Source: a virus | Direction: 5' to 3' (one strand) | UHGV virus genome: UHGV-0106651 | DNA length: 18,055 bases | Shown: positions 3,389-14,426 of the stretch, piece after piece | How the letters are laid out: every line of letters begins with the position of its first letter | How positions within the stretch are numbered: position 1 is the first letter of the stretch | Notes under the pieces: model-generated | Database searches by the model: none | What the model was told of the DNA's origin: nothing | The model's input: the letters and a program-made list of their open reading frames with translations, nothing else | Made by a program: the position numbers and the translations under genes

Positions 3389-4462
3389 TTACGCTCCCGG
3401 CTCTGCGGTCGCTTTAGCCGGTGTGGAGAAGTCACCGACCTTGATTTTTTCCACCAGACAACCGGCGGCGTAGTCTTCCACCACGTAATCAATGTTCATT
3501 GACTCGTAGTTCTCCACGCGGTCGAGTTTCGGGTTTTCCTCAATCACGCGGCGATGGCTGTCATCCATGTAGTAGATGGACAGGTTTTCCAGCTTCGTGA
3601 TGAGCATCGCATCCGCCGGGAAGTACGGGACGCGTACCGCCGGCAGATTACCGATGCGTTTCTGGCTGATGATGACGTCAGCGGCCAGCATTTCGCTGTT
3701 GTCCTGCTCTTTGTTAACGATGGGGAAATACTTGTCCGCCAGTAGCTGACGCCCCACAATCACCACAAGGTCAGGGTCTTCCTGATACCACGGCTCAATC
3801 AGGTTGTTGGTCGCATCCATCACCAGTGCATCAAGGCTGGCATAATCACCGCCCTTACCCACGCGGATAACCTCAGAGGTGGTGTGCCCTTCCTCGTCAG
3901 TGACCTTGCTCATCACGCGCGCCGGTGCTTCATTGCGGTATTTCTGCAGCCAGCCGACCGCCACATCCTGCAGCATCGGATTACTGCTGCGGTCAGAGGT
4001 TTCGGCACGCTTCACGCCGTTAAAACCGGCCATGATGAAATCAAGGGACTGGCGTTTGATAATGGCATTACGGATACGGAGCTGGAAATCCTGATAACGC
4101 GCCCACAGGTCCAGCGTTTTGTAGCGGATATAAAAATCGAAGTTAACCTGGTCGCATTCGTACTTGTTGGACGCCAGCTTCGAGAAGTCCTTCGGCTGAC
4201 GCTCGGTGCCACCGGCGGTGTCGGTGGTGCTGGCAATGGGGCCGGTGACACCGATACCAATTTTTTCCCCTTTCATTTCGCTGACCGGCACAATGTTGAT
4301 GCGGGTCAGAAAGTCAGAGGACTCCTGCATGGTGTTCATCAGGGTCTGGGTGACCGACGGTTCAACGGTGAATTTTTTCGACACATCACCGGCGTCGATG
4401 CCGTTCAGTTCGGCAACACGGGACAGGTAGGCATTAAATTTTAAACGGGTTTCCTGGCGCAT
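3389..4462 (-). CDS. N: Major capsid protein gpN, 357 aa
   Basis: 357-aa product starting MRQETRLKFNAYLSRVAELNG, the same length as P2 gpN, sitting between O and M. Confidence 0.9.
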   Translation of the reverse strand: MRQETRLKFNAYLSRVAELNGIDAGDVSKKFTVEPSVTQTLMNTMQESSDFLTRINIVPVSEMKGEKIGIGVTGPIASTTDTAGGTERQPKDFSKLASNKYECDQVNFDFYIRYKTLDLWARYQDFQLRIRNAIIKRQSLDFIMAGFNGVKRAETSDRSSNPMLQDVAVGWLQKYRNEAPARVMSKVTDEEGHTTSEVIRVGKGGDYASLDALVMDATNNLIEPWYQEDPDLVVIVGRQLLADKYFPIVNKEQDNSEMLAADVIISQKRIGNLPAVRVPYFPADAMLITKLENLSIYYMDDSHRRVIEENPKLDRVENYESMNIDYVVEDYAAGCLVEKIKVGDFSTPAKATAEPGA

Positions 4463-8408: not shown

Positions 8409-8981
8409 CTATTTTTTCATATTGTATATAACTTCGCAAACACCCGTCAGTGTTAATCGGCTATAATTTTCCAATGTAAACACAGGATAATCATAAAAAA
8501 CCTCAGGTTCTGGCAATGGCGAACGAACAGTTGTTCTTTTATTTGACTGCATCCTCCTCGACAATTTACTTATTACACCAATGTAACCCACCTTTCTTGA
8601 CAAATGCCCATGTAATTTCAATACAGAATATAGCCACTTACAAAAATGAATGCCAGTAACTATCTGTTTAGCGGCACGATTTGAGTTATAAGACTTAAGA
8701 TCTATTACGATAAAATAATCCATATCCCTGTACGACGTAACAAAAATCCCATCACAAACAGAGGATAGCCCAGTTAAGGTTGAAGATTTTAAAAATTTCC
8801 AAACTGGTTTAGATACACTAGTAGAATCTAACGAAAATCCATATACACCATTTCCATTCACCAATAATTTCTTATTAGCAGAACTGGGATTATCTTCGCA
8901 TATGACCCAACATGCCTGCTCCCGTGTTAATTGAAATGCAGGATCGATGCAATTCTGTATTACACTGATAATATTACTCAT
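8409..8981 (-). CDS. Hypothetical 190-aa protein, second gene of the cargo operon; possible small TOPRIM-like nuclease partner (speculative)
   Basis: ATG at 8979-8981 (reverse complement) overlaps the upstream ATPase stop by 8 nt (ATGAGTAA), indicating translational coupling. AT-rich. Contains WVICEDNPS and RDMDYFIVID, loosely resembling the TOPRIM glutamate and DxD motifs; no confident domain call. Confidence 0.6.
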   Translation of the reverse strand: MSNIISVIQNCIDPAFQLTREQACWVICEDNPSSANKKLLVNGNGVYGFSLDSTSVSKPVWKFLKSSTLTGLSSVCDGIFVTSYRDMDYFIVIDLKSYNSNRAAKQIVTGIHFCKWLYSVLKLHGHLSRKVGYIGVISKLSRRMQSNKRTTVRSPLPEPEVFYDYPVFTLENYSRLTLTGVCEVIYNMKK

Positions 8982-10410
8982 CTGCCCCCTCACTATCAGA
9001 GGAGTTTTCTACTAACGAATAATATATTTCATCATTATCATCATTAATGGCGTTAATTACCTCATCAAAAGTTACAGCATGAATTCCTTCATTTGATTTT
9101 TGCATTTCATTTACAGAACCGCCATCAAATAAATAAGCAGCAACCATGTTAGAATCTAAAATTGAGTCGATGCTAATTCCTTGCTTACGCATTACAGTGT
9201 TTCGTTTTTCAATCATATTTTCAGAAACGCCATGAAGCATCATTAAGCTATTGATTTCCTTGACAAAATAATCACTGTGAGTACTAACAACAACCCGAAT
9301 ACCAGAGTTAACTAATTTTGCCAAAAATCTTGCAATTACTCGCTGATTTGACGGGTGTAAATTTAACTCTGGTTCGTCAATCATTAGAATGTCACCAACT
9401 TTTGCTTGATGTTCTAAATAAAACCATAAACCAAACAAACTCTTAACAGTAGATGACGATAAATGAAGATCAATTTTTTTGCTTGCAGGTGTTTTACCTT
9501 TCTTATATGTAGAAAAGTAAATTTGCCCTTCAGGATCAACCGAATATTTCCCTGATATTATTTTTTTTACTTCTTCTGCCAACTTATGAAATTGGCCATT
9601 TTTATTTTTTCTATTTACCTTAATCTCATTTAGCCAGTCTATATAATTTGCTATAGGAGCAGAATATCTTGACTTCATTACATCCATTAACAGTGAATTA
9701 AGATCGAATTGCTCTTTTGAAGCATGATGCAATAATGTAGTTCTTCTAGAGCTTAATTCATTAAAAAAAAGATGCAATCCATTCCTTTCAGCAGGAATTA
9801 AGAAGGCCGGACTTTCATCATGCTCGATTTTTAATAACTGACTTAGAGTCAAATTTATAAACCCGTCTACTCTTGGAAAAACAGAATCTAGCAGCGTCAT
9901 TTGTATGATATTACTGTTTTCATCTTTGGATAATAGCATTACTTCTTTTTTGCCAGTTCCTATGACGAGGCTAACATCCAGTTTTTTTTCATAAACACTT
10001 GATGTTAATGACTCTTCATCAATAACCCAGTCAAATGTTGAATTAGAAAAAATCTCATTATCATTAGTACTAAACACATCCCTCAGCATTAAAGATGAGC
10101 TTTTATTAAACTCTTTTTTAATTAACGTGAAGTTATTTTTTATCCAGTCAATCACATCTAACTCAAACTTGCCATTTTCACGAAGAGTTTTGGCAAAGTT
10201 TGCTACTTGTGGCAATTTTAAAGATGGTGATGGCATATTTAGGAAGCCATATAACCCATACATAACCCATGTTTTACCAGTGTTATTCTTCCCACATAAA
10301 AGAGTTAAAGGTTTTGCATTAATCTCTCCTGCAGAGATACACCCAATATTTTTAAATGAAAACTTCCATGATGCTAATTTACTTACATTAATTTCACTTT
10401 GCTTTTTCAT
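8974..10410 (-). CDS. ABC-type ATPase of the AAA_21/AAA_15 (OLD/SMC-like) kind, 478 aa; first gene of the cargo operon
   Basis: Walker A LLCGKNNTGKT near the N-terminus, signature-like HLSSSTVKSL, Walker B ILMIDEPELNLHP, H-loop VVVSTHSD. Strong ribosome-binding site AAGGAAG 5 nt before the ATG. Roughly one-third GC by eye, against a visibly GC-richer phage backbone. Confidence 0.8.
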   Translation of the reverse strand: MKKQSEINVSKLASWKFSFKNIGCISAGEINAKPLTLLCGKNNTGKTWVMYGLYGFLNMPSPSLKLPQVANFAKTLRENGKFELDVIDWIKNNFTLIKKEFNKSSSLMLRDVFSTNDNEIFSNSTFDWVIDEESLTSSVYEKKLDVSLVIGTGKKEVMLLSKDENSNIIQMTLLDSVFPRVDGFINLTLSQLLKIEHDESPAFLIPAERNGLHLFFNELSSRRTTLLHHASKEQFDLNSLLMDVMKSRYSAPIANYIDWLNEIKVNRKNKNGQFHKLAEEVKKIISGKYSVDPEGQIYFSTYKKGKTPASKKIDLHLSSSTVKSLFGLWFYLEHQAKVGDILMIDEPELNLHPSNQRVIARFLAKLVNSGIRVVVSTHSDYFVKEINSLMMLHGVSENMIEKRNTVMRKQGISIDSILDSNMVAAYLFDGGSVNEMQKSNEGIHAVTFDEVINAINDDNDEIYYSLVENSSDSEGADE

Positions 10411-10811: not shown

Positions 10812-10841
10812 CACACAAAAACGGGGAAAGTCGCTTCCCCC
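10812..10841 (-). terminator. Rho-independent terminator downstream of the 174-aa gene
   Basis: On the minus strand, a GGGGAA/TTCCCC stem with a short loop is followed by GTTTTTGTGTG, about 12 nt after the stop of the 10852..11376 ORF. Confidence 0.6.
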
Positions 10842-10851
10842 ACAAACATTA

Positions 10852-11376
10852 TCAACGCACCGGAATGTAAGATTCAAGGTCTCTGATTACGGCTTGTTTC
10901 AGTGCTTCAGATACAGCCTCAAGTTCTGGCAATGCTGGCTTTTCACTTAAGTTCGTTTCGAATTCCCCGCTTCCTATTACTAGCGTAAAGCCATTTCCAT
11001 CACGTAGCAGTTTCAAAGGAATAATCACGTTTAACTTAGGATGAGCAACCGGTGACTTATCCACTGTAAGGCCAATAAAAAATGACAAAATCCCATCTGC
11101 ATCAGGCAACAGATCGTGTAACTGAACTTTAGATTTTTCACCATCTTTAATTGCAGCGACAAAAACATAATTTTCAGTGGGGTTTTGCCCTGGATAGCCC
11201 CAGCAAGTTTGCTCAAGCTCAAGCGACCCCTCAAAGTTTTTCGCAATCAGCCCAACAATATTTTGTAAACGCTCTTTTTCCTCTCTCTGTAACCGAACGA
11301 TTTCAATATACTTATCTCTTATAGTCTGAAAAGTAATCACTTTAATCTCCTGAAACGGTTTACACAGAAACAGCAT
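10852..11376 (-). CDS. Hypothetical protein, 174 aa; orphan cargo gene on the replication-gene side of cos
   Basis: Uninterrupted ORF with a purine-rich stretch (AGGGGG) before the ATG and its own terminator downstream. No recognisable motifs. GC appears intermediate between the backbone and the ATPase operon. Confidence 0.6.
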   Translation of the reverse strand: MLFLCKPFQEIKVITFQTIRDKYIEIVRLQREEKERLQNIVGLIAKNFEGSLELEQTCWGYPGQNPTENYVFVAAIKDGEKSKVQLHDLLPDADGILSFFIGLTVDKSPVAHPKLNVIIPLKLLRDGNGFTLVIGSGEFETNLSEKPALPELEAVSEALKQAVIRDLESYIPVR

Positions 11377-11439
11377 TTAACCCCCTGATAATATTTCTTT
11401 CAATAATTTTCCTAACACCAAACTGCGCTCGTGGTTCAA

Positions 11440-11478
11440 CCCCGCCAGCCCTGAAAACAAGTTTCACGACTGGCGGGG
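11440..11478 (-). terminator. GC-rich stem-loop just downstream of the 68-aa ORF; possible terminator of the A-containing operon
   Basis: CCCCGCCAG (11440-11448) pairs with CTGGCGGGG (11470-11478); the loop contains a nested TGAAA/TTTCA stem. No clean U-tract follows, so terminator function is uncertain. Confidence 0.4.
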
Positions 11479-11482
11479 TTCT

Positions 11483-11689
11483 CTATCGTCTGCGTGGTGC
11501 TGGCATAACTCTGGACTGACTGATATAGCTAAACCGCCCGTAATTATCCCGGACTATTTCGGCACACCCGACTAGCTCATCGGGCGTCAGATTTTCGTTG
11601 ACCATAATCTGCTGTAGACGCTGAACAATGGCCATCAGCTTGGCGCTTTTGGCGTTATGCTGCGGTATCTCGCCTGGTATTCTGTGCAT
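11483..11689 (-). CDS. Hypothetical small protein, 68 aa, translationally coupled to the upstream DUF3850-like gene
   Basis: ATG at 11687-11689 (reverse complement) overlaps the upstream TAA stop as TAATG. The track ORF 11483..11701 has an earlier in-frame ATG; the coupled start is preferred. Confidence 0.45.
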   Translation of the reverse strand: MHRIPGEIPQHNAKSAKLMAIVQRLQQIMVNENLTPDELVGCAEIVRDNYGRFSYISQSRVMPAPRRR

Positions 11690-12141
11690 TATCCAAGCCA
11701 CCCGTTTTGCTGTGCACGCTCCACCTGTTCATCTGAATAGTTCCATGCTCCATCCGTGGCAACCATTGCCCCGCCAGACATCCCCGTCTCTGGTTCATAC
11801 ATAACAGCAAGGCCGAGCTGATGCATAATTTCATGATTAATTCTGAATATCAGGCCACGCTCACTAAGTTCTTTCCAGTTCACAATCTCATATGCACCTG
11901 TATTAAGCAGCTCAATACTTAGCAAGACATAATCTTCCAGCCAGTCTGACAGGTCAGTAACATCTGTTATCCGGGCTTCAACCTTTCGCCCCGTATACAC
12001 ACCCTGCACCCATTCACGCAAAATCAACGTGTCCCGGCGCTCATAATTACGGTCATTTTTCCGAAACTCTGCACGTTTATGTCCTTCCAGCACAAGGTCG
12101 AAATATTTTGCGTGAAGCTTTACCTCGTGAATTTTTGCCAT
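11689..12141 (-). CDS. DUF3850-like (ASCH/PUA-like fold) protein with a C-terminal HExxH-containing extension, 150 aa
   Basis: Start MAKIHEVKLHAKYFDLVLEGHKRAEFRKNDRNYERRDTLILREW resembles the remembered DUF3850 consensus. C-terminal part contains INHEIMHQLG. Its ATG overlaps the A stop (TAATG). Confidence 0.6.
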   Translation of the reverse strand: MAKIHEVKLHAKYFDLVLEGHKRAEFRKNDRNYERRDTLILREWVQGVYTGRKVEARITDVTDLSDWLEDYVLLSIELLNTGAYEIVNWKELSERGLIFRINHEIMHQLGLAVMYEPETGMSGGAMVATDGAWNYSDEQVERAQQNGWLG

Positions 12142-14426
12142 TATGTCCACTCCATTACTGTTGAGAATCCCAGCCACTCATCAGCGACCGGATACGTGAA
12201 TTTTTTCCCGTCGTAATTTACGGTCGCGCCACGCACCAGCGCCTCAAGCTCCCATCGCTGCGGCCTGATACCGTTCTGAGCAAGGTCAACGCGGATACGG
12301 GTGATTTGCAATCGTTCAGACCTGGTCAGTCTGGCAGATGGTGCAATTTCATGCGGTTTTAACGGGATTCCGTTTCTTTGCTGACGATTTGGTGTTCTCA
12401 GTCCGTGTTTTAATGCGCCCCTGAGCGCCATCACGACCTCCGGGTCACTCCATTCGATAACACCGTCATCTACCAGATTAAGCACTGCTGCGGCGTGCTC
12501 AGAAGGTGTGGGAGCCGGTAACGAAGTATCACCACCGGTGAGCTTTCCACAGTTATTGACAGGACTCCGAGGCGCGGCGATGCCGCTTTTTAAAGTCAAA
12601 GGCTCCACGACCGGCACTTTCGGCACAATGCGCCAGTCCGTCGTTCTGGTGATATGAATATGACGCGCGCCGAGATGCGGCGCGTAAATGCCGACCACTC
12701 TCTCGACCTCTTCCTCGTACTCGTTAACGTCATCCGACGAGCTACGGGCAACCCTGACAGTCTGACAATCGCGCGGGACATTTGCCCCACCCTGCGCGCT
12801 GATATACAGCGCAAAATCGCCACTGTCTGCGGCAGCGCGTGCAGCCTCGACGCGTTCGTCAAACTCATCAGCAATGCTGACACCGCGGGGCAATTTGCGT
12901 AGTTCACGGTAAGCCCCCATTGTCGGCAGGCCAACAGTTTTAAATTGTGGGATACGCCACGTTGACGCCCATGCGGTAACAGCCGCAGCAGTATCTTTCA
13001 GTGGCCTGCCGGTATCGTTATCGAGCTGACCATCCAGTGCATAGCCATCGATGTTTTTTGAGATGTATTTCGCGATATACCCCGCAGCACCGCCCCGATT
13101 AAGATGTTTTGCCTGAAAACGGTTTCGCGCGGCTCCTCTTTCGTCGCCATCCTCTTTAAGCGCATAGCGACGCATGATTTCGATAATCTGGTTACGCTGG
13201 CGTGGATTACAAAAAAGCATCATATGCCAGTGCGGCGTTCCGTCGTGGTGTGGCTCGACGACTCGCAAACCGTAGACCTGTAAATCATTATCCTTGAATG
13301 CCGTGCGCATCAGGCTCCAGATGCGGCAGAGATAACGCTGCGCATCCTTTGGATTAAATGCCTCATCGTTCCAGCCGTGATTAAGCTGGACGGTTTTACT
13401 TTCGCCTTTTCTGACCTGACGTGTCGGGTGATACTTTGACGGCGCGGTCAGCGTGATAAACATCCCCACATCACCCTCTGCGGCAGCGTAACGCTCAATA
13501 CCGGCGATGGTGTTCATCAGCTCCATCCGGCGAATTTCTGGATTAGAAATACTGCCCATCACCTTACTGATAAGGTCGATGCGCTCGCCGGTTTCCCTGT
13601 TTTCAAGGTCACACGATTTAAGAAATTCCAGATTTGCCTGGCGGCGCGCACGCACATCACGAATGGCATGTTTACTGGCATAAGGAGAACGGTCTTTATT
13701 GACCTCCCCGACAGCAATCAGTAACGCCTCATGCCAGCGCATACGCTGGCCTTTAAGCTGATGAGTCCACCATTCATCGTTAAACAGACGGGCAATGGCA
13801 GAATATGCCTGCCTCGTGGTCATCTGCCCTTTACGGTATTTTTTCAAGTAGAGCGGGGAAATATTGAAAGCACGTGCAGCGCCAGCAACATGACCATACA
13901 GGTGAGCCTGCGCCTCATCCGTAAACAGCGATTCTTTTTCGCCATGGGCATCCACCCAGGCATCGCAGAGTTCCTCATACATCATGAAAAGCTGCGATGA
14001 GATACGGGCGGCAAATTTTTTCAGCTCCTTGTCATTCATTCCCGGCAGGCGCGCATAGTGGTCACGCTCTGCCAGAAACAGTAACGACGCGTCGGTGTTC
14101 ATTTCATGGCGCTGATTCACGCGCTCAATGCGCGGCCATAAACGACGCTGAAAAGTGGCTGTGAGGAAATAAAACCCGTGCACCGGGCTTTTATTGCGCC
14201 GGATGTAGTCATAGCGTGAAGTAAACAGCGAGCGCAAAAAGTAAGGCAGGCGATTAATCGTGGATAAAACACCTTGCACCTGACGCATCTCGTCACGTGT
14301 AAGGGGTCTTTCGCGCCCGACGGCCTCGCGTGGCGCGTTCCATGCATAAGCACCGGTAAACGTCTCACCGGTGCCTGCGGCAAATGCTGACGGAGGGACA
14401 AAACGCCCGGAGGCTTTAACGGCCAT
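12141..14426 (-). CDS. A: Replication initiation protein gpA (rolling-circle HUH endonuclease), 761 aa
   Basis: Start at the ATG giving MAVKASGRFVPPSAFAAGTGE, 761 aa as in P2 gpA. HUH motif TPHWHMMLF and tyrosine-pair region YIAKYISK are present. Confidence 0.9.
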   Translation of the reverse strand: MAVKASGRFVPPSAFAAGTGETFTGAYAWNAPREAVGRERPLTRDEMRQVQGVLSTINRLPYFLRSLFTSRYDYIRRNKSPVHGFYFLTATFQRRLWPRIERVNQRHEMNTDASLLFLAERDHYARLPGMNDKELKKFAARISSQLFMMYEELCDAWVDAHGEKESLFTDEAQAHLYGHVAGAARAFNISPLYLKKYRKGQMTTRQAYSAIARLFNDEWWTHQLKGQRMRWHEALLIAVGEVNKDRSPYASKHAIRDVRARRQANLEFLKSCDLENRETGERIDLISKVMGSISNPEIRRMELMNTIAGIERYAAAEGDVGMFITLTAPSKYHPTRQVRKGESKTVQLNHGWNDEAFNPKDAQRYLCRIWSLMRTAFKDNDLQVYGLRVVEPHHDGTPHWHMMLFCNPRQRNQIIEIMRRYALKEDGDERGAARNRFQAKHLNRGGAAGYIAKYISKNIDGYALDGQLDNDTGRPLKDTAAAVTAWASTWRIPQFKTVGLPTMGAYRELRKLPRGVSIADEFDERVEAARAAADSGDFALYISAQGGANVPRDCQTVRVARSSSDDVNEYEEEVERVVGIYAPHLGARHIHITRTTDWRIVPKVPVVEPLTLKSGIAAPRSPVNNCGKLTGGDTSLPAPTPSEHAAAVLNLVDDGVIEWSDPEVVMALRGALKHGLRTPNRQQRNGIPLKPHEIAPSARLTRSERLQITRIRVDLAQNGIRPQRWELEALVRGATVNYDGKKFTYPVADEWLGFSTVMEWT

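What the first reader, a model, noticed from the sequence alone, without database searches (positions are those of the whole stretch)
11483..12141. DUF3850-like protein with a C-terminal HExxH motif and a 68-aa ORF, chained to gene A by TAATG overlaps
Seen in sequence: the A stop overlaps the start of a 150-aa ORF (TAATG), whose stop in turn overlaps the start of a 68-aa ORF (TAATG), implying tight translational coupling to the replication gene. The 150-aa protein has a DUF3850-like N-terminus and a C-terminal INHEIMHQLG segment. Inference: the HExxH could be a zinc-metallopeptidase-like site or coincidental. Coupling to A suggests a replication-linked accessory or anti-host function rather than random cargo.
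Basis: partly seen in the sequence, partly recalled or inferred. Interest (0 to 1): 0.45.

Follow-up and report, generated by a model that had tools for sequence, protein, structure and literature searches.

The report
Phage P2 orf91-type accessory genes
These are two real, already annotated small genes at the end of the replication operon of a P2-like prophage of E. coli: the full-length form of P2 "orf91", which joins a nucleic-acid-binding-type domain to a phage-specific domain of unknown function, and a separate 68-residue protein. The HExxH motif that suggested a zinc protease is a lineage-specific coincidence.

Summary

The zinc-peptidase reading fails. The motif lies in Pfam DUF7415, and across 147 family members the first His is R, K or T (His in only 14). 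Glu (121) and the second His (142) are conserved. No peptidase profile or fold matches, and the domain is only about 55 residues.

The locus is P2 orf91 (truncated in P2 itself) plus a small gene, phrog_11386. RefSeq calls the same two ORFs. Three complete E. coli genomes carry the locus at 100% identity, and about a quarter of E. coli P2-like prophages have it.

The new point is context. In 80 viral contigs, DUF7415 genes sit directly after gpA (31) or before it (16-17), in several fusion arrangements including a swapped DUF7415-DUF3850 order. Stand-alone copies follow gpL (16). This supports a dispensable accessory of the replication module. The mechanism is inferred only. Overlapping junctions are the rule in this operon.

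Ordinary and already known as a gene; function unknown.

The parts
12141..14426 (-). gpA, the P2-type rolling-circle replication initiator (nickase). Its TAA stop at 12143..12141 shares one base with the next start codon.
   Evidence: Pfam Phage_GPA E 6.8e-123. RefSeq calls a 2286-nt 'replication endonuclease' in an identical prophage. Sequence read.
12150..12153 (-). GGAG Shine-Dalgarno-like sequence, 8 nt upstream of the ORF150 ATG and inside the 3' end of A.
   Evidence: Read directly. Conserved in the six-phage alignment.
11689..12141 (-). ORF150, the full-length orthologue of P2 orf91: 150 aa with two domains (DUF3850/ASCH + DUF7415).
   Evidence: phrog_1812 E 2.3e-80 over the full length. 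L-413C orf91 is 150 aa at the same position. RefSeq calls it 'DUF3850 domain-containing protein'.
11914..12132 (-). DUF3850 / minimal ASCH (PUA-like) domain, residues 4-76, carrying the motif G21-x-K23-x-x-E26-x-R28.
11734..11886 (-). DUF7415 domain, residues about 86-136: helix 89-94, helix 97-109, beta-hairpin 111-114/124-127. A further helix, 137-145, follows.
   Evidence: PF24187 E 2e-14. 196 clusters at E<=1e-3 in an exhaustive HMMER search. Column counts. AF2 pLDDT 92-97 with a 91-sequence alignment.
11821..11835 (-). H103-E104-I-M-H107. This is a lineage-specific HExxH on the conserved N-x-E-x-x-H-P-x-G-L-A helix of DUF7415.
   Evidence: Helix assignment.
11698..11702 (-). GGTGG Shine-Dalgarno-like sequence, 8 nt upstream of the ORF68 ATG.
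   Evidence: Read directly. Conserved in the phages that have both genes.
11483..11689 (-). ORF68: a small basic protein (pI 10) of unknown function (phrog_11386). It is the last conserved gene before the variable gpA-gpQ hotspot.
   Evidence: phrog_11386 E 5e-38. 172 homologues in Enterobacteriaceae. 34 phage records including PSP3 gp37. dN/dS about 0.1 at deep divergence.
11438..11480 (.). Strong 18-bp hairpin starting 3 nt after the ORF68 stop. It is conserved in related phages, and the conserved backbone ends just beyond it (about 11412-11428).
   Evidence: RNA fold dG -37.7 kcal/mol, z -4.8, 0 of 200 shuffles as stable. Conservation. Megablast boundaries.

Best explanation
The region holds the last two genes of the early (replication) operon of a P2-like prophage.

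ORF150 is the full-length form of P2 orf91. It has a minimal ASCH/PUA-like domain (DUF3850), the fold that binds RNA, modified bases or nucleosides in its characterised relatives. This is joined to DUF7415, an acidic alpha/beta module of about 55 residues that is phage-specific. ORF68 is an independent, conserved, small basic protein.

Both genes are translated at the tail of the A message, through one-base stop/start overlaps with their own Shine-Dalgarno-like sequences. This is the usual junction type in this operon. Both genes are dispensable accessories.

The HExxH is not a zincin site. The conserved features of the helix are N102, E104, H107, P108 and G110, and the first His is a substitution confined to one lineage.

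Inferred mechanism, not shown: DUF7415 is a portable docking or ligand-site module that travels with replication-initiator genes and with nucleotide- or nucleic-acid-processing domains. In ORF150 it would tether or regulate an ASCH nucleic-acid-binding activity at or around A-driven rolling-circle replication.
For: Shown:
- ORFs, overlaps and SD-like sequences.
- Domain hits above the Pfam cut-offs.
- 3iuw match by sequence and by fold, followed by ASCH, YqfB, YTH and EVE neighbours.
- Synteny with P2, Wphi and L-413C orf91 directly after A.
- Identical ORF calls in RefSeq.
- First His not conserved; Glu and second His conserved.
- ORF68 under purifying selection: pN 0.12-0.17 against pS 0.6-0.8.

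Link to replication:
- Of 80 IMG/VR loci with DUF7415, 31 have it directly downstream of gpA and 16-17 directly upstream.
- The arrangements differ: DUF3850-DUF7415 after A; the swapped order DUF7415-DUF3850 after A (P0141); a DUF5405(Orf83)-DUF7415 fusion overlapping the A start; separate DUF3850 and DUF7415 genes before A (L053); and a DUF7415 gene abutting a non-homologous Toprim primase (L038 and L051).
- Other fusion partners are a dATP/dGTP pyrophosphohydrolase, an Rv2179c-like 3'-5' exoribonuclease and a thymidylate kinase.
- In T4-like phages the stand-alone gene lies between nrdD and nrdG. In T5-like phages the domain is in a protein annotated as an exonuclease, near nrdD and the primase.

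Dispensability:
- P2 itself keeps only the DUF3850 part; homology ends at about window 11921.
- 186/PSP3-like phages lack ORF150.
- Only 345-396 of the 1377-1712 E. coli genomes that carry this gpA have the locus.
Against: - No experiment or interaction data exist for either domain. No paper in the library mentions DUF7415.
- Adjacency to A is partly expected, because the early operon is short and the sampled loci are phylogenetically related. There are about 7 arrangement classes, not 48 independent events.
- Sixteen stand-alone DUF7415 genes lie in the late operon directly after gpL. That position does not suit a replication-only role.
- The DUF7415 domain is acidic (pI 4.6) and has invariant polar residues (N102, H107, S122, D130). 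It could be a ligand or metal site rather than a docking surface.
- Two related DUF7415 genes are immediately followed by Acb2/Tad1-hairpin genes. This points towards counter-defence instead.
- The relative orientation of the two domains is uncertain (pTM 0.52).
Confidence: 0.55

Rival explanations
1. ORF150, or its DUF7415 module, is an early-expressed counter-defence or host-takeover factor. It would sequester or destroy a nucleotide-derived immune signal or a modified nucleic acid, or inhibit a host defence protein. Its position next to A would only reflect that the operon end is a permissive slot for accessory genes.
For: - Distribution is patchy and the gene is dispensable.
- It lies at the edge of the gpA-gpQ defence hotspot described by Rousset et al. 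2022 (PMC9122126).
- The small acidic module occurs stand-alone in moron-like slots, after gpL in 16 loci.
- Two DUF7415 genes (P0118, P0184) overlap the start of a downstream gene with the Acb2_Tad1_hairpin domain PF24729, the family of cyclic-oligonucleotide sponges.
- It is fused to nucleotide hydrolases and an exoribonuclease.
- PUA-like domains recognise modified bases (PMC7641849, listed).
Against: - No hit to any PADLOC model, and no known anti-defence family in Pfam or PHROGs.
- The Acb2/Tad1 neighbourhood was seen only in two related metagenomic lineages.
- The repeated, arrangement-independent adjacency to replication initiators, and the fusion to the Orf83-family protein, are not predicted by this reading.
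- The NAR 2026 survey found anti-defence systems in only 28 P2 elements, of two types, and did not flag this gene (PMC13586616).
Confidence: 0.25
2. ORF150 is a nucleotide-pool or salvage enzyme. The ASCH domain would hydrolyse or bind a modified nucleoside, such as N4-acetylcytidine as E. coli YqfB does. DUF7415 would link it to other phage nucleotide-metabolism enzymes.
For: - DUF7415 is fused to thymidylate kinase and to a dATP/dGTP pyrophosphohydrolase, and lies next to nrdD/nrdG and nudix genes in virulent phages.
Against: - The YqfB catalytic octapeptide is G-x-K21-x-x-T24-x-R26 with Thr as nucleophile (PMC9599836). ORF150 has G21-x-K23-x-x-E26-x-R28, so the nucleophile is replaced by Glu, as in canonical ASCH domains that are not amidohydrolases (sequence).
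- Some close relatives even lose E26 (P0021, P0036, P0038).
- DUF3850 is shorter than YqfB (about 77 against 103 residues), and the equivalent of Glu74 was not identified.
Confidence: 0.1
3. The C-terminal HExxH is the active site of a minimal zinc metallopeptidase: two His plus a downstream acidic ligand, with Glu as the general base.
For: - HEIMH is present.
- H103 is kept in 24 of 25 close two-domain relatives.
- The confident AF2 model places residues 97-109 in a helix, so H103 and H107 face the same side.
- Conserved acidic residues follow: E/D at 116 and 118, and D130.
Against: - Across the family the first His is R57/K24/T18/H14 of 147.
- Only 13 of 150 representatives have any HExxH.
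- No peptidase family appears at E<=1 in Pfam.
- No PDB sequence relative exists.
- The domain is about 55 residues and occurs alone as 62-85-aa proteins, too small for a zincin fold (established knowledge of zincin architecture).
- A Pro directly follows the second His in 134 of 147 sequences.
Confidence: 0.03
4. One or both ORFs are non-functional remnants or chance ORFs at the eroding edge of the hotspot.
For: - P2 truncates ORF150, and L-413C truncates ORF68.
- The Wphi record splits ORF150 through several 1-nt insertions.
- ORF68 shows dN/dS of 0.4-0.8 against its closest relatives, with a clustered divergent patch.
Against: - ORF150 matches two Pfam domains and folds confidently.
- ORF68 stays intact across genera, with dN/dS about 0.1 where synonymous sites are near saturation, and is seen on more than 1000 contigs.
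- Both are intact in 345 complete E. coli genomes.
Confidence: 0.02

Closest known systems
Bacteriophage P2 orf91 (NP_046796) and its full-length orthologues (L-413C orf91; Wphi gp91+gp92)
   Same: Same position directly after A, with the same TAATG junction. About 95% nucleotide identity over the shared part, and the same DUF3850 domain.
   Different: P2's own copy keeps homology only to about residue 74 and lacks DUF7415 and ORF68, which are replaced by the tin/old cargo. The Wphi record splits the gene through 1-nt insertions absent from all other relatives, probably sequencing errors. No function has been published for any of them: it is listed as 'unknown' in PMC3091744.
PDB 3iuw, Enterococcus faecalis 'activating signal cointegrator' (DUF3850; minimal ASCH, PUA-like fold)
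   Different: 3iuw is a single-domain structural-genomics protein with no assigned function and no DUF7415 domain.
E. coli YqfB, ASCH-domain N4-acetylcytidine amidohydrolase (PDB 9kyf)
   Different: The Thr24 nucleophile is replaced by Glu26. Identity is only 14% and the domain is shorter.
Zincin metallopeptidases (HExxH)
   Same: Only the five-residue pattern, on a helix.
   Different: The first His is not conserved in the family. There is no zincin fold, no peptidase profile match and no identified third ligand, and the domain is about 55 residues.
Pfam DUF7415 (PF24187) proteins of other phages
   Same: Core W-N-E-L-S-x-x-G-L-x-x-R-I-N-x-E-I-L-H-P-L-G-L-A ... T-G-x-S-x-G-A ... D-G-x-W-x-Y.
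   Different: Most are stand-alone proteins of 60-100 residues, or are fused to other partners: DUF5405, an Rv2179c-like exonuclease, a dATP/dGTP pyrophosphohydrolase or thymidylate kinase. This lineage has His where most have Arg, Lys or Thr.

Membership tests
Pfam DUF3850 / ASCH (PUA-like clan) | Profile match above the curated gathering score | tested here: met
   PF12961 scores 61.9 bits against a cut-off of 22.9, E 6.6e-17. PF04266 scores 39.4 bits against 21.2.
Pfam DUF3850 / ASCH (PUA-like clan) | PUA-like beta-barrel fold matching a solved member | tested here: met
Pfam DUF3850 / ASCH (PUA-like clan) | Conserved G-x-K-x-x-E-x-R octapeptide of ASCH domains | tested here: met
   G21-H-K23-R-A-E26-F-R28 in ORF150. 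K23 and R28 are kept in all close relatives; E26 is lost in three of them.
YqfB-type N4-acylcytidine amidohydrolases | Catalytic Lys-Thr-Glu triad (Lys21, Thr24, Glu74) with Arg26 | tested here: not met
   By octapeptide spacing, Thr24 corresponds to Glu26 in ORF150 (PMC9599836; sequence). The equivalent of Glu74 was not identified.
YqfB-type N4-acylcytidine amidohydrolases | Hydrolysis of ac4C or N4-acyl cytosines | not testable with these tools
   Needs an enzyme assay.
Pfam DUF7415 | Profile match above the gathering score, with the conserved core residues | tested here: met
   PF24187 scores 54 bits against a cut-off of 27, E 2e-14. N102, E104, H107, G110, S122 and D130 match the family's conserved columns.
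Zincin metallopeptidases | HExxH conserved across homologues (both His and the Glu) | tested here: not met
   The first His is present in 14 of 147 family members; R, K or T elsewhere. 13 of 150 have any HExxH.
Zincin metallopeptidases | Zincin fold (mixed beta-sheet plus active-site helix) or a peptidase profile match | tested here: not met
Zincin metallopeptidases | Third metal ligand positioned next to the two His | tested here: inconclusive
   Conserved acidic residues exist at 116, 118 and 130. Model coordinates could not be inspected, so the geometry is unknown.
P2 early-operon gene orf91 (orthology) | Position immediately 3' of gene A, with sequence homology to P2 orf91 | tested here: met
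   95.3% nucleotide identity to P2 across the A 3' end and the orf91 5' part. Same junction.
Translationally coupled gene pair | Stop/start overlap with an upstream SD-like sequence | tested here: met
   TAATG at both junctions, with GGAG and GGTGG 8 nt upstream. The A/ORF150 TAATG is conserved in all six phages aligned. The ORF150/ORF68 TAATG is kept in the window, P2SIAC, YpM_50 and Wphi.
Translationally coupled gene pair | Downstream translation depends on upstream translation | not testable with these tools
   Needs translational fusions or Ribo-seq.
Known anti-phage defence or anti-defence proteins | Match to a PADLOC model or a named anti-defence family | tested here: not met
   ORF150 gives only a 0.029 chance-level hit and ORF68 gives none. 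The DUF7415 set gives none. The PHROG families are 'unknown function'.

The most novel reading that the evidence does not exclude
DUF7415 is an uncharacterised functional module found in 821 of 50,697 phage genomes and 196 clusters at 50% identity. Its invariant N-E-H-S-D/G constellation would form a small ligand-, metal- or partner-binding site. It is repeatedly placed next to, or fused with, replication initiators and nucleotide- or nucleic-acid-processing enzymes. It could be a new replisome or dNTP-complex docking domain, or a new counter-defence module, as the Acb2/Tad1-type neighbours hint. ORF150 would be its ASCH-coupled version in P2-like phages.
Probability: 0.3. Interest if true: 0.55.

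Novelty: already known. Interest (0 to 1): 0.27.

Why it matters
As a finding it is ordinary. The genes are annotated in RefSeq, they belong to existing Pfam and PHROG families, and they correspond to P2 orf91, known since the P2 genome was sequenced. The attractive enzymatic idea, a zinc protease, does not hold.

Two things may be useful. First, P2's reference orf91 is a truncated relic of a two-domain gene, so work on the reference phage says little about the full gene. Second, the uncharacterised DUF7415 module is widespread in temperate and virulent phages. It shows unusually consistent placement beside replication initiators, in several fusion orders. That gives a concrete, testable handle on a domain with no literature.

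Tried and rejected
- The first AF2 run used a shallow 25-sequence alignment. It gave pLDDT about 61 for the C-domain and put the HExxH in beta-strands. I first took this as evidence against a metal site.
- The word-indexed homologue search found only enterobacterial relatives, in which HExxH looks invariant. This was misleading until the exhaustive HMMER search.
- PDB searches with the DUF7415 profile found only a chance flagellin repeat at E 0.19.
- PADLOC and NCBIfam gave nothing for ORF150, ORF68 or ORF174.
- Rfam gave only a sub-threshold RybB-terminator-like hit on the hairpin.
- A profile search of PDB sequences did not retrieve YqfB, so the catalytic-residue comparison rests on octapeptide spacing.
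- Literature searches for DUF7415 and orf91 gave no functional data.
- An obligate ORF150-ORF68 pair, for example a toxin-antitoxin, was considered and rejected because each occurs without the other.

Full report
**Observation.** The window is a P2-like prophage. It runs int, C, cox, B, orf80-83, A, a variable region, then Q, P, O, N, M, L. Everything in the finding is on the minus strand.

gpA (Pfam Phage_GPA, E 6.8e-123) stops with TAA at 12143..12141. The last A of that stop is the first base of the ATG of a 150-aa ORF (12141..11689). That ORF's TAA (11691..11689) likewise shares its last base with the ATG of a 68-aa ORF (11689..11483). Both junctions therefore read TAATG.

GGAG (12153..12150) and GGTGG (11702..11698) lie 8 nt upstream of the two ATGs. 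RefSeq/PGAP calls exactly these CDSs in a 100% identical E. coli prophage.

**What the locus is.** Megablast against phage genomes finds 74 Peduovirus-type records. The 150-aa gene is the orthologue of P2 orf91.
- L-413C annotates a 150-aa orf91 at the same place.
- The P2 reference keeps homology only up to about window 11921 (residue about 74). Its copy then runs into unrelated sequence ahead of tin and old.
- Wphi is annotated as gp91 + gp92 because its record carries several single-base insertions that no other relative has, probably sequencing errors.

Among 5426 complete E. coli genomes, 396 carry the locus. Of these, 345 cover at least 80% of it and 3 are 100% identical. By comparison, 1712 genomes carry the 3' part of this gpA. 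So about a quarter of E. coli P2-like prophages have the pair.

The region between gpA and gpQ is the published P2 defence hotspot (Rousset et al. 2022, PMC9122126). ORF150 and ORF68 sit at its gpA-side edge. The conserved backbone ends about 55-70 nt beyond the ORF68 stop.

**N-terminal domain.** Residues 4-76 match DUF3850 (E 6.6e-17) and ASCH (E 1e-9), both above the Pfam cut-offs. They also match the solved DUF3850 protein 3iuw by sequence (E 3.4e-12).

The ASCH octapeptide is present as G21-x-K23-x-x-E26-x-R28. In YqfB-type N4-acetylcytidine amidohydrolases the corresponding residues are Lys21, Thr24 and Arg26, with Thr as the nucleophile (PMC9599836). ORF150 has Glu at that position, so it is not a YqfB-type enzyme by that criterion.

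**C-terminal domain and the HExxH.** Residues 86-128 match Pfam DUF7415 (E 2e-14). Among close enterobacterial two-domain relatives the segment GLVFRINHEI[LM]H[PQ]LGLA is almost invariant, which on its own would look like an active site.

An exhaustive HMMER search with residues 78-150 found 196 clusters at E<=1e-3. In 147 aligned domains the residue counts are as follows:
- H103 position: R57, K24, T18, H14.
- E104: Glu in 121.
- H107: His in 142.
- N102: Asn in 145.
- G110: Gly in 147.
- S122: Ser in 143.
- D130: Asp in 131.
- P108 position: Pro in 134.

The domain is about 55 residues and exists alone as proteins of 62-85 residues. The zincin reading is therefore rejected.

What survives is a conserved N-x-E-x-x-H-P-x-G-L-A helix (residues 97-109, pLDDT 92-97), followed by a beta-hairpin and a helix. 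A non-zincin metal or ligand site using E104, H107 and D130 cannot be excluded, because I could not inspect the coordinates. An earlier low-confidence model that placed the motif in strands was discarded.

**Context of DUF7415 elsewhere.** I classified 80 IMG/VR loci, most on contigs of about 30 kb, by the gene flanking DUF7415:
- 31 have the DUF7415 gene directly downstream of gpA.
- 16-17 have it directly upstream, overlapping the gpA start. There it is fused to DUF5405, the P2 Orf83 family. In L044 it is a 132-aa protein in a close P2 relative.
- 16 are stand-alone genes of 62-85 residues directly after the head-completion gene L, in the late operon. Pfam of their neighbours gave GPL in 11, holin in 14 and tail X in 6.
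- 2 abut a non-homologous Toprim primase (L038 and L051).
- 5 are Rv2179c-like exonuclease fusions lying 1-2 kb upstream of gpA.

A distant P2-like contig has the swapped order DUF7415-DUF3850, again directly after gpA (P0141). L053 has separate DUF3850 and DUF7415 genes before gpA. Other fusion partners are a dATP/dGTP pyrophosphohydrolase (three cases) and thymidylate kinase.

tblastn finds the domain in 821 of 50,697 phage records:
- In T4-like Jiaodavirus it lies between nrdD and nrdG.
- In T5-like phages it is in a protein annotated as an exonuclease, near nrdD and the primase.
- In Slopekvirus it lies near a nudix hydrolase.

Two related metagenomic DUF7415 genes are immediately followed by genes with the Acb2_Tad1_hairpin domain.

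**ORF68.** It matches phrog_11386 (E 5e-38) and no Pfam or NCBIfam family. It has 172 homologues across Enterobacteriaceae, one of them seen on at least 1000 contigs. It also occurs in 186/PSP3-like phages: PSP3 gp37, SW9 and 613R3. There it follows tumA and dinI rather than ORF150, and is separated from them by about 195 nt.

Nei-Gojobori comparison with these distant copies gives pN 0.12-0.17 against pS 0.6-0.8, so dN/dS is about 0.1. It is a real gene, independent of ORF150. It is basic (pI 10).

Against its nearest relatives dN/dS is 0.4-0.8, with a clustered divergent patch near the N-terminus. I did not explain this.

A very stable hairpin (11438..11480; dG -37.7 kcal/mol, z -4.8) follows its stop and is conserved.

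**Coupling.** The overlaps are real and conserved. The A/ORF150 TAATG is present in all six phages aligned. The ORF150/ORF68 TAATG is kept in the window, P2SIAC, YpM_50 and Wphi.

However, six of the eight junctions of this operon overlap by 1-11 nt (coordinates). The overlap is therefore the operon's normal style and is not a specific mark of partnership with A.

**Explanation and rivals.** These points are firmly supported:
- the identity of the genes;
- the domain composition;
- expression as the tail of the early operon (from the sequence architecture);
- dispensability (truncated in P2, absent in 186-like phages, present in about a quarter of prophages);
- rejection of the zincin reading.

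The rest is inferred. DUF7415 appears to be a portable module that accompanies replication initiators and nucleotide- or nucleic-acid-processing domains. In ORF150 it would couple an ASCH-type nucleic-acid-binding domain to A-driven replication.

The main rival is a counter-defence or host-takeover role. Its support is the patchy distribution, the small acidic module, the moron-like late-operon copies and the Acb2/Tad1-type neighbours. Against it, no known anti-defence or defence profile matches.

A YqfB-like salvage enzyme is unlikely, because the nucleophile is missing. A remnant or chance ORF is excluded by conservation.

**Verdict.** It is a replication-operon accessory with a DUF3850 domain. 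It is not a metallopeptidase, and the TAATG coupling is not special to A. The genes are already annotated and correspond to a long-known P2 ORF of unknown function. Interest is low to moderate, and comes only from the uncharacterised but widespread DUF7415 module and its consistent placement beside replication genes.

Noticed in passing
window 8409..10410 (-): The hotspot cargo is a PD-T4-4 anti-phage system. The 478-aa AAA_15/AAA_21 ATPase matches PD-T4-4_A (E 1.6e-111), and the overlapping 194-aa ORF matches PD-T4-4_B (E 5e-12). It lies between ORF174 and the portal gene Q, only about 60 nt from the Q stop.
   Followed up: partly
window 10852..11376 (-), terminator-like site 10843..10821 (-): A 174-aa ORF of unknown function (phrog_5091, E 1.7e-13; no Pfam, NCBIfam or PADLOC hit) lies between ORF68 and PD-T4-4 on the same strand as the early operon. 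A canonical intrinsic-terminator-like hairpin with a T-run follows it. It may be read through from the early operon or belong to the cargo.
   Followed up: partly
window 11438..11480: A conserved 18-bp hairpin (dG -37.7 kcal/mol, z -4.8) starts 3 nt after the ORF68 stop. On the minus strand it lacks a U-tail. On the plus strand it is followed by UUCUCUAUCGUCU and gives a sub-threshold RybB-terminator-like Rfam hit. It may stop convergent transcription from cargo such as tin/old in P2, or mark the recombination boundary of the hotspot.
   Followed up: partly
L015 439-908, L016 53-522, L102 2268-3171: In low-GC metagenomic contigs, two different DUF7415 proteins (81 and 132 aa) are each immediately followed, with overlapping stop and start, by a gene with the Acb2_Tad1_hairpin domain (PF24729). 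That is the family of anti-CBASS and anti-Thoeris sponges.
   Followed up: partly
L043, L055, L057-L060, L063, L073, L074, L076, L077, L082, L083, L089, L092, L097; also L014 5001-5213: In another branch of P2-like phages, a stand-alone DUF7415 gene of 62-85 residues sits in the late operon directly after the head-completion gene L and before tail gene X or the holin. This position does not fit a purely replication-linked role.
   Followed up: partly
L047 2716-3189 and similar loci; L044 2992-3390; L053 2507-3273: DUF7415 is fused to DUF5405 (the P2 Orf83/Orf81 family) in the slot that overlaps the gpA start. L053 has a separate DUF3850 gene just upstream of that fusion. L044, a close P2 relative, has a 132-aa DUF7415 protein before A, and ORF68 directly after A.
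   Followed up: partly
L001 (Wphi NC_005056) 3662-4177: The Wphi reference record carries several isolated 1-nt insertions relative to all close relatives. They split the orf91 orthologue into gp91 and gp92 and shift part of ORF68. They are most likely sequencing errors in the 2003-era record.
   Followed up: partly
window about 11640..11665 (N-terminal part of ORF68): A cluster of about 8 substitutions within 20 nt distinguishes this window's ORF68 from otherwise 95%-identical relatives. It raises dN/dS to 0.4-0.8 against the nearest relatives, compared with about 0.1 against distant ones. This could be local recombination or diversifying change; it is unexplained.
   Followed up: no
L099 3477-3710; L100 3309-3737: In T4-like Klebsiella phages a 77-aa DUF7415 protein lies between nrdD and nrdG and is annotated 'MazG-like'. 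In T5-like phages the domain is part of a 142-aa protein annotated 'exonuclease'. Both names look like transferred annotations rather than evidence.
   Followed up: no
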